Of a stretch of DNA of 64,000 nucleotides, positions 16,001-63,734 are shown in pieces. Below the pieces are notes generated by a model. That model did not search any database, was not told where the DNA came from, and worked only from the letters and a program-made list of their open reading frames with translations. The stretch is taken from the NCBI RefSeq assembly GCF_018977255.1, contig NW_024704743.1, forward strand, positions 2,668,001-2,732,000. The letters are read 5' to 3'. Source of the DNA: Callorhinchus milii (lineage: Eukaryota). Position 1 is the stretch's first letter, and every line of letters starts with the position of its first letter. A program made the translations under genes and the position numbers.

Positions 16001-16476
16001 ATATCAGGAAGGACCTTTGCTGTTAATTGCTTTCGCACCTCGGTGACAACCCACAAGATGCTTTTCTTTCTCTTTTTTTTGAATGAACGAAGGCCCTCGA
16101 CAGCCTCTGTGTCGAGCGCAAATAAAGGAGAGCGAGAGAAAACGAGAGACAGCAAGAGAGAACGAGAGAGAGTGAGGCCCCATTCACCATCAGGTTATAA
16201 TCTATCTCCAACCCATTCGCAGGCCAACTCTTGAATTGTGAGTGTCTGCGGTCACCCATGGCAACTGAACAACCAGACACTCACTCACACACTCACTCGT
16301 ACACACACACTCACATACACACATTCACTCACACACTCACATTCACACACACACACATACTCACTCACACAGACACACTCACACACACACACACACTCTC
16401 ACACTCACACAGCCTGACACTCACTCACAAACTCACACACACACTCACACGAAAGCTGGAGAAGGTGCGCTCTCAC

Positions 16477-17990: not shown

Positions 17991-18077
17991 CACAGTTTCC
18001 AATAATCACTTTTGTGACTATGCAACTGAGATCATATTACTAGCTGCAACATCACAAAAATGACACTGGCAACTGTT
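17991..18077 (-). ncRNA. MIR153: miR-153 precursor hairpin (miR-153-2 orthologue)
   Basis: Minus strand reads ...gccagtgTCATTTTTGTGATGTTGCAGCTagtaatatgatctcagTTGCATAGTCACAAAAGTGATTattggaaactgtg. The 5p arm is at 18042-18063 and the 3p arm at 18004-18025, and the arms are complementary. Sits between the exon 19 and exon 20 equivalents. Confidence 0.97.
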
Positions 18078-20399: not shown

Positions 20400-21381
20400 G
20401 TGTAGAGAGTGATCTGTAGCCAGTGATCTGTAGCCAGTGATTTGTAGAGAGTGATCTGTAGAGAATGATCTGTAGAGAGTGATCTGTATCCAGTGATCTG
20501 TAGCCAGTGATTTGTAGAGAGTGATCTGTAGAGAATGATCTGTACAGAGTGATCTGTAGAGAGTGATCTGTAGACAGGGATCTGTAGAGAATGATCTGTA
20601 TCCAGTGATCTGTAGAGAATGATCTGTAGAGAGTGATCTGTAGAGAATGATCTGTAGAGAGTAATCTTTACAGAATGATCTGTAGAGAATGATCTGTAGA
20701 GTGTGATCTGTAGAGAATGATCTGTAGAGAGTGATCTGTAGTCAGTGATCTGAAGAGAGTGATCTGTAGCCAATGATCTGTAGAGAGTGATCTGTAGAGA
20801 GTGATCTGTAGCCAGTGATCTGTAGAGAGTGATCTGTAGAGAGTGATCTGTAGAGAATGATCTGTAGCCAGTGATCTGCAGAGAATAATCTGTAGCCAGT
20901 GATCTGTAGAGAGCGATCTGTAGAGTGATCTGTTGAGGATGATCTGTAGCCAGTAATCTGTAGAGTGATCTGTAGAGGATGATCTGTAGCCAGTGATCTG
21001 TAGAGAGTGATCTGTAGAGAGTGATCTGTAGAGAGTGATCTGTAGAGAGTGATCTGTAGAGGATGATCTGTAGAGAATGATCTGTAGAGGATGATCTGTA
21101 GAGGATGATCTGTAGAGGATGATCTGTAGCTAGTGATCTGGAGAGAATGATCGGTAGTCAGTGATCTGTGAGAATGATCTTTGGCAAATGATCTGCAGCC
21201 AATGATCTGTAGAGAGTGATCTGTAGAGAGTGATCTGTAGAGAGTGATCTGTAGAGAGTGATCTGTAGCCAACAATCTGTAGAGAATGACCTGTAAAGAG
21301 TGATCTGTAGAGAATGTTCTGTAGAGAGTGATCCATAGCCAGTGGTCTGTAGAGAGTGATCTGTAGAGAGTGATCTGTAGA
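20400..21381. repeat. 14-bp minisatellite (GTGATCTGTAGAGA)n, about 70 units
   Basis: Directly visible, with variant units (gcca, gaat, ggat). Confidence 0.97.
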
Positions 21382-36861: not shown

Positions 36862-37080
36862 CTGATAGGCTGTAGTGGCATCTGAGCTGGTGTTGGGCTC
36901 AGCTCCCAGTGAGCTCAGCTTGTGTTTCAGGCTGTGGTGGGGGCTGTGCCTCACACAGTAGACGATGCCTGATGCCACCAGGACCCCAATGATGCACAGG
37001 ATTGAGATGATGGTTAAGACAATAAACTTGGTGGATTCCTGCTCGTCTGCCTGGTGTGGGGACGCCTGCAGCTTGCTCTT
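36862..37080 (-). CDS. PTPRN2: PTPRN2 transmembrane exon (equivalent to human exon 13), 73 codons, phase 0/0
   Basis: Bounded by ctacag| and |gtacag. Encodes [73 protein letters not shown], a hydrophobic TM segment resembling phogrin [30 protein letters not shown]. Confidence 0.96.
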
Positions 37081-42500: not shown

Positions 42501-43479
42501 AACCCCTCTCTGAACCTCTCTCTATCACTCTATCCTTTCCCTCTATTTATCATTCTGTCCCTCCACAAGTCCGGACCAAGTTGACCCCCCGGTGAGGAGC
42601 CAATATTGGCCATTATTTGCCAATGATGAAGTGAAAAGGATTTCAGGACAAATCAGCGGAGAAACCGATGGCAATAACTCACCACAAACAAACAGCGACA
42701 GCCCCGGGACCGCGGGAGAGGGGGAGAGGAGGGAGAGGAGGGGAGGGAGGGAGAGGGGGAGAAGGGGAGAGGGAGAGGGGAGGGAGGAAGAGGGGGTGAG
42801 GGAGGGAGAGAGGGGGTGAGGGAGAGGGGAGGGAGAAGGCTGAGGGAGGGAGGGAGAGAGGGGGTGAGGAGAGAGGGGGTGAGGGAGGGAGAGGGGGAGG
42901 GAGAGGGGGAGAGGGAACGCCGCACTTACCGGATCTTCATCCCGACATTCCCCAATAATTCTTTCGTAAGTTACGATCCTTGAAAGGGAAAGGCTTTAAA
43001 AGGCGGGAAAGGAAGACTGGACCTGGAGGTTTCCTCTCTCTTTCCCCCTCTCCCCCTCCCTCTCCCTCTCCCCCTCCCTCTCCCTCTCCCTCTCCTCTCG
43101 GTCCATCTGGAATGGAGGTGAAGCCATTCCGGCGCCGCTCTCATTGCCTCATTGACTCCCGTCAAACAGCGGCGACGTTTTACACCACAAACAAAACAAA
43201 CTCAGTAAATACACATAAATATATATCTACACACAGAGGAGTCGGGAGGCAAAAACAAGGCTTCCTCTCGGCTTTCCCAACCCGATGTGTGCGAGAGGGG
43301 GAGAGGGGGAGAGAGGGGGAGAGAGAGAGGGGGTGAGGGAGAGGGGGAGAGAGGGGGTGAGGGAGAGGGGGTGAGGGAGAGAGTGAGGGAGAGAGTGAGT
43401 GAGGGATGGGGAGAGAGAGAGGGGGAGGGAGGGAGGGAGCGAGAGGTGCTGAGGGAGGAGGAGGAGGGGATGGAGGACC

Positions 43480-43600
43480 CTCTGTGCTCGGGGTCTGAGC
43501 CCCTCCTTATATCCCTGTCCTCACAGCTCTGTCCTCACCACATGGCGTGTCCCGGTTGCTATGGTGACGCCGCCACATGTTACTGACAGTAATTGGATAA
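43480..43600 (-). promoter_or_regulatory. Candidate internal Pol II promoter
   Basis: Minus-strand TATAAG at 43506-43511, E-boxes CACATG at 43539-43544 and 43574-43579, X-box GTTGCTATGGTGAC at 43555-43568, TGACAG at 43584-43589, and minus-strand CCAAT at 43592-43596. Confidence 0.55.
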
Positions 43601-44699
43601 AAGGCATTTTTCTGATAATAAAAACCTCAATAAAACCGACGGACCAACAAACCGTATGAATGTCAGTCAGAGCACCGCTCTCTCTCTCTCTCTCTCTCTC
43701 TACCTTTCTATCTCACTTTCTCTCTCTCTATCTATCTTTCTCTCTGTCCACCTCTCTCTATATATATCTTATTTATCTCACTTTCTCTCTCTCTCTCTCT
43801 ATATATATATAATCTATCTCCCTCTCCCTCTCTATCTCTCTCTCTCCCCCCCCAGTGTTTCAGGCTGGTGCTTCCGTCCAGTTTGCACTGATTTGGGTCT
43901 GCATTAGATGATATGGGGTGGGGGGGGGGTGGCGCAGGATGGGGGGGGGGGGGGGAGGGGGAGAGCTGTGATTTTTTGGGGATGGGGAATGGGTTAAAGA
44001 CTATATATTTACCCCCCGGCTCAGCATCCATCACAATCTCAGTTTCCGTGTGGGATATCAAACAGGGTTTACCTGAAATAATCAGGGAGGGCGGGTATGT
44101 GGGGGGGGGGGGGGGGTATGGGGGGATATGTGAAGGGGGTATGTGAGGGGGGTATATGAGGGGGGGGTATGTGGGAGGCGTATGTGGGGGGGGTATGTGA
44201 GGGGGGTGTGTGGGGGCAGGTATGGGAGGGGTATGTGTGGGGGGGGGGGTATGTGTGTGGGGGGGGGGGAGGGGGTGAAGTGAAGGGAAACCAAAAGTGG
44301 AAAAGGTAAATGTGAAACACAAACCATGTTAAAATGTCTTTAAAATCTAAAGAAAAGATGAGGCGCCCTGAGAATCAAACATAACAGCGGCTCCGAACAG
44401 GGGGACAGGGGGACAGGGGGGGGGGGGGGGGGGGAGAAACCGTGTCAGATGCAGATGACAAATCTTGGGAGTGTTTCTCCAGTTAATCTTTCTATTCAGG
44501 TTCCCCTCCTCCTGTCCCCCCATTGCCTCCCGGTGTGACAGGTGGAGATGGCAGTCCAGTTGTCCTCACATTTACAGCGAGAATCTGCAGCTCAAACATA
44601 TCAAACCCAAGTCACCAGGTCCTGCTCACAGCTCAGCACTAATTATCCTGACTTTAATCCACTGTCCAGGACAAGCGACAACTGATCCCAGGCCACATC

Positions 44700-53960: not shown

Positions 53961-56900
53961 AACAATATATATTTATTAATAATCTTTGCATTTGATATGG
54001 TGCCTTATCACGTGATCAAGACGTCTCAAAGCGCTTCACAGGATATACTGTAAAGCGGTGTGACTGTTTATTTTGTGGGCGAACACGGCAGCCAATTTGG
54101 ACACAGCAGTGTCCCACAAACAGCTATGGACTGAATGACCAGTTTCATATGTGTGTGGTTGGGTGGGGGGGGGGGGGAGTTAGGAATGACAGAGAGATAG
54201 ATAGGAAGGCTACGTGAGGGAAACTTGAAACCTGTATGGGAAGATATGTGGGTACAGGTTGTCAATATCATTGAGAGTTGGGGTACAGATTTGGTAAGAG
54301 ATGGACACAGGGTCTCAGTCATTAATTGGAGAGCTCAGGTACAGGTAGACACAGGACACCAGCCAATAAGGTGATGGAAACCCTCTAATATATCCAACTT
54401 TGCTCTTTTGTGTGTTTCAAATTTGTATTTTTACAGGAGTGAGAAAAAGGAATCATTGGCAATTGCCATGTATTCCCTGCTGCCCCTCAGTAGCTAACAG
54501 GAAAGGCCACAATTAAACAGTCTCAGTTAGAAACGCCTGCCTTCAAACTTGGCAGCGAAGGGTTGTGATTGGAGATACAGCTCTGTGGGTAATTACTGAT
54601 GAAGGTTTAGCTGCTGGTTGGCACCAAGATCACTACAGAAGAGAATAATATTCCTTGCATTTGATATAACACCTTATCACATCTTTGAGACATCTCAAAG
54701 CACTTCCCAGAATAGACTGTAAAGAGAATTGACTGAATATTTCTGGGCGAAACGTGGCAGCCAATTGCGCACAGCAACGTCCCCACAAACAGTCGTGGAT
54801 TGAAGTTTGTTAATAAAAAAAGTGATCTCTCAATCCACAGGCAATATCCACACCTAACAGCCTGGAGGCTGAGTAACTCAGAAACCAGTGTTTGCCAAAC
54901 TTTCAGGTATTTCACCCAATCTCTAGAGCTCCATCTCTCCACCTCACATCCTCCATACCTATTTTCAAATCTCACCTTAAAACCTACCTCTTCAACTGTG
55001 CCTACGGTGACCTCTGCCTCCTGTTCCTTCCTACCCTGATGTTATCCACCTGAAGGGCGCTATAAACATGTATGTTGTTAAAGGTGCTGTATACATATAT
55101 GTTGTAAGTGAGACAAAATTGTTGTGTTTCAATCTCACACTAATTTGACATTCGTTTCACACCTACTTTGAAAGTCCCATGTGTGTAACTTTATCAAATG
55201 CCTTTTGTAAATCAAAATTAAATTGGGCCACTGGATAGCTGTCTTACATTTGTTCAGTCACTTAAACATTTGAGTAGATTTGGGAGACATTTTTGCCTAT
55301 TTCTTGTCATGTCTGAAATTTCTAGGTGAGATTCCTGTATAATTGTCTCTAGAATGTTACAGATGTTAGGCTTAAGTGCTCCATAATTTATGAACTTGTA
55401 TCTTAAAGAAAGAGAATTCAAGCAGGGGAATGGAATCAATCATCTTTATCGATAGAGAGATAGTGTAAAATGAAGAGCCACATATTCTCAAGGGTACTTG
55501 CCCCCAATGACTATATATATATCTATTTTATAGATTGGGTATTAAGCATCTGACAATTTGTGTTGTAACATTCTGCCACTGGATTGCAAGGAAGACAGTG
55601 GTCTATTCATTCTAAAACAACAGGTCTGTGTTTCAACATTGCAGTCGTCTCAATACTCTTGTCAAGTGTCAGCCTGGCTCAGTTGGTAACACTCTCACCT
55701 CTGAGTAACAAGATTGTGGAGTTCCCTAGCGTACTGGTTAGAGCGCTCGCCTCACAGGTGAGAGGACCCGGGTTTGATTCCCGGCCAGGACCAGACATCA
55801 GACAAGTTTCCTTTCTCAACACATCTGTTTTAGTATTAATAATAATTCTTCCATTTGATATACAGTATATTCTGAGAAGCACTTTGAGACGTCTCGATGA
55901 TATGATAAAAGTTCTACATCAAATACAAAGATGGTAATTATAAATGCAGGTTGTTGTTATGGTTTGAAAGCCAGTTTTCCAAGCTCCCAAACAAAAAAGT
56001 GGAAAATCAGCTTTCAAATTAAATCTGGGTTTAAGACCGCTCCCCAAAACTGCACCCGATATTAAACGTTAAAGCAGAGGTTTGAAGCTTGAGAACACGT
56101 GGAAATCTCAGGCCTTTGGGATGTGATTGAGAAAGAATCGCTCTCATGCAGAGAGACCGAGTAAAGAAAAGGCATTCATTGACGGAAGGTTGGGGCAGTG
56201 GGAAAGATGTTATTGGTGCATTACAGAGGCAATTGGCAGCACAGCACTTTGGGCTTTTACAAAAGCTGCTGAGTGTTGTTCTATTTGTAAAGCTATAATT
56301 TGCAGCTCTGCACGCCTTTGGACGAGGGAGGTTTTTTTTCATTATTATAAGACTTAACAAAAGTGCAGTTTGTTACATAGCTTTGGAATGCGAGCTCAGC
56401 AGGTGATGAAAGGGAAGCTGACTCGTTAGGTGGGCTGCTCACTGTTCACACACTGGAATTGTCACTTTGACAGTAATATGTTTTCAGTCGATTCCTTTTG
56501 AGGGGCATTCCGTTAATGAAAAAANTGCCCAATTCGAGGGACCATTTTGCTCAGCTTTCCTTTCGCCCCCTCAACACACACTCCCCCCTGCCCACACATA
56601 CACTCCCCACCCCAAACACAGTCCCCCTCAACACACACACCCCCACCACAAATACAGTCCCCCACCAACACAGACTCCCCCCTGCCCAAACACGCACACA
56701 TTTCTCCTCCCACCTCTCGCTCCGCCCCCTCCACCCATCCTCCATTCATTCCTAATTCCGCAATGTTTAACGGGAGCAAATGAATAAAATAATGCAATCT
56801 GCTTGTCAGGGAACATCCCAATTCTGAGCTTCTCACTGCACCAAAACCACACACCAGGCGTTTAACACACTGTCCTGATCAATATACAGAATGTAACATA

Positions 56901-63720: not shown

Positions 63721-63734
63721 GTTGCCATGGTAAC
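63721..63734. promoter_or_regulatory. RFX X-box
   Basis: GTTGCCATGGTAAC matches the palindromic X-box consensus GTTGCCATGG(C/T)AAC and lies in non-repeat sequence. Confidence 0.45.

What the first reader, a model, noticed from the sequence alone, without database searches (positions are those of the whole stretch)
42926..43600. Internal promoter and candidate first exon inside the large PTPRN2 intron
Seen: within about 90 bp on the minus strand, in promoter order, are CCAAT (43592-96), TGACAG, an E-box, an X-box GTTGCTATGGTGAC overlapping a half-CRE, a second E-box and TATAAG (43506-11). A CT-rich leader follows, then CpG-containing unique sequence and a consensus donor CCG|GTAAGT at 42930/42929. 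The surrounding 5 kb has few intact SINEs. Established: RFX and bHLH factors drive neuronal and neuroendocrine genes, and intronic miRNAs often have host-independent promoters. Inference: a TSS near 43480, 6.4 kb upstream of the TM exon, could make a host-independent pri-miR-153, an ectodomain-less PTPRN2 isoform or a nested lncRNA. The ATG reading MASPPFQMDRE... is in frame with the TM exon via this donor but is interrupted by one TAA (42996-42998), so the leader looks non-coding.
Basis: partly seen in the sequence, partly recalled or inferred. Interest (0 to 1): 0.75.

Follow-up and report, generated by a model that had tools for sequence, protein, structure and literature searches.

The report
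Ancient internal promoter for miR-153
A short cluster of promoter motifs inside the elephant shark PTPRN2 gene matches mammalian DNA that likely is the known mouse internal promoter, so it likely makes the nerve-cell microRNA miR-153 independently of its host gene, a switch that would be as old as jawed vertebrates.

Summary
In detail: every motif, the donor and the stop lie at the stated coordinates. The gene is elephant shark PTPRN2; the cluster lies 6.4 kb upstream of the transmembrane exon and 25 kb upstream of miR-153.

It is conserved. Mammalian gene models and database ORFs translate through the same element. Solving overlapping frames gives 25 of 30 fixed bases identical over the CCAAT/TGACAG/E-box block (next best site in the window 19), 11 of 14 in the X-box and an intact TATA run, in the same order. 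Read by eye, primers for the mouse Ptprn2 internal promoter (Mathew 2016) flank this core. So this is most likely the ortholog of a known promoter. The half-CRE and second E-box are not conserved.

The leader looks non-coding: the stop is in two other runs' contigs and 8 AUGs precede the first open start. Shark RNA evidence is weak: one contig, no junction. I found no paper describing the shark-to-mammal conservation or this motif anatomy. Interest 0.45.

The parts
43572..43604 (-). Conserved upstream block: CCAAT-like, TGACAG (TALE-type, label recalled) and first E-box
   Evidence: 25 of 30 frame-fixed bases identical to mammalian read-through ORFs P0195/P0196; best other of 127,936 positions is 19. 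The last base of CCAAT (43592) is unresolved in the mammal.
43555..43568 (.). X-box (RFX-type, label recalled)
   Evidence: Consensus match; 11 of 14 identical to mammal, differences at 43568, 43565, 43563, all outside the strong half-site.
43565..43569 (-). Half-CRE, shark only
   Evidence: Present; two of its bases differ in the mammalian solution.
43539..43544 (.). Second E-box, not seen in mammals
   Evidence: Present; the mammalian peptides between X-box and TATA contain none of the residue pairs it would encode (by eye).
43505..43514 (-). TATA box with flanks
   Evidence: TATAAG at 43506-11; no mismatch over 43514-43505 in the two-frame solution, 15 of 20 fixed bases in the block.
42930..43483 (-). 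Predicted non-coding first exon (start inferred about 28 nt below TATA; about 550 nt including a 174-nt CT tract)
   Evidence: TATA-to-donor 582 nt, 408 without the CT tract; 7 AUGs, none open into the CDS; one contig of RNA-guess run X2 covers 42941-43033.
42924..42932 (-). 5' splice donor at 42930/42929
   Evidence: Consensus match; use not observed (no joints).
36862..37080 (-). PTPRN2 transmembrane exon (exon 13 by counting back from intron 19), predicted splice partner
   Evidence: 100% identical to C. milii records; jaguar model P0200 runs from the promoter read-through into this exon in a shifted frame, 69 of 71 codon pairs.
17998..18070 (-). pre-miR-153, the likely product
   Evidence: Rfam RF00650, 89 bits; lies between the exons at 20121-19951 and about 17371-17318.

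Best explanation
This motif cluster is conserved between elephant shark and mammals and is likely the shark ortholog of the mouse Ptprn2 internal promoter, predicted to start a transcript near 43483 that likely releases miR-153 from a downstream intron without using the host gene's main promoter. Shown: the motifs, their order and their conservation. Inferred: TALE-type, bHLH and RFX factors bind the upstream block and X-box and TBP binds TATA; Pol II makes a first exon of about 550 nt that splices at 42930 to the TM exon; miR-153 is cropped from intron 19, 25 kb downstream; the spliced RNA is poorly translated or decays because 8 AUGs precede the first open start. The shorter unit would allow a faster, neuron-biased miR-153 response than the full-length gene.
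For: Gerbil model P0138 reads through E-box, X-box and TATA in order. A search with gerbil residues 1-140 only, holding neither shark sequence nor the upstream block, returned 13 ORFs; those reaching further upstream match the shark block 25 of 30 (next best 19), an out-of-sample test. X-box 11 of 14 and TATA run intact. 4 of 14 peptides have their best window-wide hit at 43604 above all 8 shuffles. 6 of 158 PTPRN2-bearing records carry promoter-region or primer-matching peptides upstream of the TM exon, 2 of them (gerbil P0138, elephant seal P0239) the X-box and TATA themselves. By eye, 5 of 20 mouse cryptic-promoter primers (R1 reverse, R2 forward, R2 reverse, R3 forward, R4 forward) translate into these peptides, with the core between R1 reverse and R2 forward. 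Mouse: H3K4me3 rises 100-fold there on depolarisation (PMC5293492 section 8); about 50% of brain miR-153 survives deletion of the main promoter (PMC3671108 section 16). One contig of run X2 covers part of the exon.
Against: No TSS, junction or chromatin data in shark; one search gave no joints, X1 laid 0 contigs, and the runs are only guessed to be RNA. Mammalian DNA was inferred from peptides, mixing records that may be different species for the X-box and TATA blocks. 6 of 14 peptides did not place the promoter in their top 3, and 4 more scored it within the shuffle range; 2 of 5 failed in the gapped scan. The gerbil chain alone is modest (one other place in the window scores the same; 22 of 50,940 background pairs). 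Mammalian first-exon junctions come from gene models whose RNA support I could not see. No bird, reptile or teleost copy was recognised. The first exon itself shows no significant similarity (best E 0.04 in 384 nt). Primer matches are 5-6 residues, by eye, with no control primers scored.
Confidence: 0.75

Rival explanations
1. The promoter is real but its main product is a truncated PTPRN2 protein: a soluble cytosolic form from the invariant Met of the exon after the TM exon, or a membrane form whose start is supplied by the candidate 60-nt exon at 40551-40492.
For: That Met is present in 152 of 152 records. The 60-nt segment has two AUGs in phase with the TM exon. Ectodomain-less records exist in bats and unnamed contigs (P0090, P0092, P0141, P0145, P0139, P0142, P0043) and a Xenopus record starts at that Met (P0165).
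Against: 8 AUGs precede that Met in the shark model; the Met is also part of the normal protein, so its conservation proves nothing. The leader's frame against the TM exon differs between gerbil and jaguar models. Short records may be fragments. PMC3671108 states complete loss of Ia-2beta mRNA and protein in the knockout. The 60-nt exon has no support beyond its splice-like signals.
Confidence: 0.12
2. The conserved block acts in shark only as an intronic enhancer for the main PTPRN2 promoter and starts no stable transcript.
For: X-box and E-box work in either orientation (own knowledge); no start or junction was seen in shark; a second, perfect X-box lies at 63721 in the same intron.
Against: The TATA run is conserved in the host's sense direction and in order behind the X-box; a consensus donor follows at a distance like that in mammalian ORFs; the mouse site has promoter chromatin.
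Confidence: 0.1
3. The motifs are chance, and the donor belongs to a 297-nt poison cassette exon (43226-42930) of the full-length transcript, or to nothing.
For: A pyrimidine tract with TAG ends at 43227 and gives a phase-0, 297-nt exon with two stops.
Against: The upstream block matches mammals 25 of 30 against a window background of at most 19, followed in order by X-box and TATA.
Confidence: 0.03

Closest known systems
Mouse Ptprn2 alternative (cryptic) promoter driving miR-153 (Mathew et al. 2016, eLife, PMC5293492)
   Same: Inside the Ptprn2 body, upstream of miR-153, same strand. Five of its 20 tiling primers translate by eye into mammalian ORFs that also carry the core matching the shark cluster.
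   Different: About 100 kb from miR-153 in mouse, 25 kb here. The passages and section read name predicted CREB, C/EBPbeta, ATF4 and CBP sites in tiles R3 and R5, downstream of the conserved core, and name no X-box, TALE site, TATA or first exon. The mammalian element is very GC-rich (by its Gly/Ala/Arg/Pro translation); the shark one is 48-50% GC. X-box-to-TATA spacing is 49 nt in shark and 60-66 nt in 37 mammalian records.
Host-independent miR-153-2 promoter predicted by Mandemakers et al. 2013 (PMC3671108)
   Same: Explains brain miR-153 that survives deletion of the main Ia-2beta promoter.
   Different: Their in-silico human TSS is 38,909 bp from the hairpin and untested; whether it is this element could not be checked. 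They cite Fujita and Iba 2008 for another predicted promoter; that paper was not held.
'TMcatalytic' and 'catalytic' isoforms of receptor PTPs from internal promoters (Ptpre, Ptpro, Ptprr; Forrest et al. 2006, PMC1431701)
   Same: An internal TSS upstream of the transmembrane exon of a receptor phosphatase.
   Different: Those make coding isoforms; here the leader has no open frame into the CDS. Their table lists Ptprn2 only under secreted forms.

Membership tests
Ptprn2 internal miR-153 promoter (mouse) | Lies in the PTPRN2 gene body upstream of miR-153, same strand | tested here: met
Ptprn2 internal miR-153 promoter (mouse) | Sequence homology to the mammalian element | tested here: met
   25 of 30, 11 of 14 and intact TATA run, in order, inferred from peptides
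Ptprn2 internal miR-153 promoter (mouse) | The mammalian element is the region tiled in PMC5293492 | tested here: met
   By-eye translation of 20 primers: 5 match; no machine null
Ptprn2 internal miR-153 promoter (mouse) | Starts a transcript that reaches miR-153 | tested here: inconclusive
   One contig in the exon, no joints
Ptprn2 internal miR-153 promoter (mouse) | H3K4me3, activity induction, CREB/ATF4/C/EBPbeta/CBP binding | not testable with these tools
   No shark chromatin data
TATA-type Pol II core promoter | TATA box, conserved and oriented with the transcript | tested here: met
TATA-type Pol II core promoter | Focused start about 30 nt downstream | not testable with these tools
   Contigs cannot show starts
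RFX X-box element | Match to the X-box consensus (recalled) above chance | tested here: met
   3 matches at 2 sites vs 0.55 expected
RFX X-box element | Bound by an RFX protein | not testable with these tools
   Needs ChIP or EMSA
Coding alternative first exon (TMcatalytic isoform) | Open frame from an AUG into the TM exon | tested here: not met
   TAA at 42996-98, unchanged in contigs of X2 and X16
CpG-island promoter | GC above 50-55% and CpG o/e above 0.6 over several hundred bases (thresholds recalled) | tested here: inconclusive
   o/e 0.77-0.89 but GC 48-50% in two 200-bp bins split by a CT tract

The most novel reading that the evidence does not exclude
A TALE/bHLH/RFX/TATA promoter kept since the origin of jawed vertebrates makes, besides miR-153, a soluble PTPRN2 cytosolic fragment of about 340 aa from the invariant Met after the TM exon: a transcription-made counterpart of the calpain-released PTPRN fragment that goes to the nucleus. 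Main-promoter Ptprn2 knockout mice would then not be null in brain.
Probability: 0.12. Interest if true: 0.7.

Novelty: new member of a known kind. Interest (0 to 1): 0.45.

Why it matters
The mouse promoter was mapped only as a 3-kb chromatin region. Conservation to a cartilaginous fish (about 450 million years, recalled) narrows it to a core of about 100 bp and names different candidate regulators (RFX, TALE, bHLH) from those proposed. That makes the long-noted host-independent brain supply of miR-153 directly testable by a small deletion. It also warns that Ptprn2 knockouts made at the main promoter keep this unit, and that several database gene models are promoter read-through artefacts.

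Tried and rejected
No whole genome is held, so the upstream exons and intron length were not mapped; the window shows no exon between 37081 and 64000.

I laid 4 of 24 runs on 42850-43680. X1 (share 0.37) and X15 laid nothing, which the tool says can be false. X2 had no cover over the promoter, and repeats were skipped; neither proves anything. No joints or loose ends.

Peptide routes that failed: tblastn of 136 N-terminal stretches against the intron gave only low-complexity hits among the 60 best rows printed; an ungapped codon scan gave no clear excess over shuffles for 19 peptides, the gerbil one included.

Metagenome scans: P0190 as query, 0 loci from 596 candidates; a gapped motif pattern, 0 matches. 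That pattern held a base at which the mammalian X-box later proved to differ, so it could not have found mammalian copies.

Profile search: 9 hits, 6 already seen, all mammal-like; absence of other vertebrates means little, as it needs an open frame. Carp 'VTIAT' matches (6 records) lie next to an early exon, not this intron: rejected as orthologs. A + strand chain with canary P0026 is treated as background.

Earlier findings: nothing. Fujita and Iba 2008 and Monteys 2010 were not held and may bear on novelty. No supplements were read; Fig. 4 of PMC5293492 and ESM Fig. 2 of PMC3671108 may bear on position.

Full report
Observation. Two motifs were written in + strand letters. The ATG at 43127 is in phase with the TM exon and stops at TAA 42996-98. 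Only the X-box is individually above chance: 3 matches at 2 sites against 0.55 expected; a looser pattern is not enriched. CpG is locally high (o/e 0.77-0.89 vs 0.43) at ordinary GC. SINE depletion is real but shared by 3 of 16 bins.

Context. The TM exon (37080-36862) is 100% identical to Callorhinchus milii PTPRN2 records. Eleven exons map from there to 11648 and none above it in the window. miR-153 lies at 17998-18070 on the same strand, in the intron that PMC3671108 numbers 19; counting back, the TM exon is exon 13 and the finding is in intron 12. A RefSeq model of this species joins an ectodomain to the TM exon (P0010), so the main promoter lies outside the window.

Conservation. No vertebrate DNA could be fetched, so I used database proteins that translate non-coding DNA. 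The gerbil model P0138 begins with residues that match the shark frames at the first E-box, the X-box and the TATA box. Alone this is modest: 2 of 5000 shuffles, one equal-scoring other place in the window, 22 of 50,940 background pairs. A search with gerbil residues 1-140 returned 13 ORFs, 8 of which extend further upstream in two frames. Solving two frames (P0195, P0196) fixes 30 of 33 bases over 43604-43572; 25 are identical to the shark, and the best other of 127,936 positions scores 19. This block was not in the query. A third frame (P0202) fixes the X-box (11 of 14 identical, strong half-site intact) and the TATA block (no mismatch over 43514-43505; 15 of 20 overall). The half-CRE and second E-box are not kept. 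Results against: 6 of 14 peptides did not place the promoter in their top 3, 4 more scored it within the shuffle range, and 4 scored it above all shuffles; 3 of 5 passed the gapped scan. The ORFs were selected by homology to these motifs, so their number is not independent support. No non-mammalian copy was recognised among 9 profile hits.

Link to PTPRN2 and to the known promoter. Six of 158 PTPRN2-bearing records carry promoter-region or primer-matching peptides before the TM exon, including gerbil, elephant seal and white rhinoceros. A jaguar model runs from the promoter into the TM exon in a shifted frame (69 of 71 codon pairs compatible with the meerkat exon, 20-29 at other offsets). Mathew et al. 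2016 (PMC5293492; passages and section 8) describe an H3K4me3 site 100 kb upstream of mouse miR-153 that rises 100-fold on depolarisation. By eye, 5 of their 20 primers translate into these peptides, and the core falls between R1 reverse and R2 forward; no R5-R10 primer matched. Mandemakers et al. 2013 (PMC3671108; passages and section 16) found about 50% of brain miR-153 left after deleting the main promoter, almost none in islets. PMC8499053 (passages) saw a short unannotated 3' PTPRN2 transcript in human neural stem cells.

Shark RNA. A run guessed to be RNA holds 0.37 of the sampled words but laid nothing. Another gave one 132-nt contig over 42941-43033 at depth 5.6. An unlabelled, genome-sized run covered promoter and exon. 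Both keep the TAA. No joints were found. Expression is therefore only hinted.

Mechanism. Shown: motifs, order, conservation, closed leader frame. Inferred: TALE, bHLH and RFX binding (labels recalled), a start near 43483, splicing from 42930 to the TM exon, cropping of miR-153 from intron 19, and poor translation or decay of the spliced RNA, since 8 AUGs precede the first open in-frame Met. Several mammalian ORFs end or shift frame at a donor-like position about 400-450 nt below TATA (by eye), close to the shark's 408 nt without its CT tract; the exon sequence itself is not detectably conserved.

Rivals. A truncated-protein role (0.12) is possible: the next Met is invariant (152 of 152), ectodomain-less records exist, a 60-nt candidate exon could supply a start, and a cleaved PTPRN cytosolic fragment is reported to act in the nucleus (PMC11802530, passages). 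Enhancer only: 0.10. Chance or poison cassette: 0.03.

Novelty. The promoter is known in mouse. Ten library searches turned up no paper on its conservation in cartilaginous fish, its X-box/TALE/TATA core or its first exon; most listed papers were seen only as listings. Fujita and Iba 2008, which predicted a conserved miR-153-2 promoter according to PMC3671108, could not be read, and genome-browser annotation could not be checked. Other papers seen as passages only: PMC4618452, PMC1431701, PMC9900141, PMC13108173, PMC5895606, PMC4133727, PMC2632650. Verdict: real, a new member of a known kind, interest 0.45.

Noticed in passing
window 63721-63734: A perfect near-palindromic X-box in the same intron, 20 kb upstream of the finding, next to a SINE-like stretch; possibly an enhancer.
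   Followed up: partly
window 16251-16265: A 15-bp X-box-like site in the intron just below the exon at 16561-16475.
   Followed up: no
window 40551-40492 (minus): Candidate 60-nt exon with AG acceptor, GT donor and two AUGs in phase with the TM exon; would give an ectodomain-less membrane form. No RNA test.
   Followed up: partly
P0033, P0023, P0029; P0043, P0044: Pig, pheasant and babbler models share translated non-coding stretches upstream of the TM exon (82% over 45 residues for pig and pheasant); an unnamed rodent-like contig and a mole rat model share another. No match in the window.
   Followed up: partly
P0065, P0068, P0067, P0056, P0060, P0066: Cyprinid PTPRN2 models read through an X-box-like sequence right after an early ectodomain exon.
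   Followed up: no
P0200 (XP_060485418.1): The jaguar record named 'POLG alternative reading frame-like' is promoter read-through plus the PTPRN2 TM exon in a shifted frame.
   Followed up: yes
window 37281-37081 and 20401-21381: Public C. milii models extend the TM exon into an intronic microsatellite; some use a 14-bp tandem repeat as an exon, and all three seen miss the real exon at 20121-19951.
   Followed up: partly
window 42967, 43528, 56525: Other runs differ from the window at 42967 and 43528; a single N at 56525 may mark an assembly gap.
   Followed up: no
window 147, 25186, 35184, 46629, 51868, 55727, 63217: Seven Rfam tRNA hits, likely heads of a tRNA-derived SINE; one such element has 52 blastn matches in the window.
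   Followed up: partly
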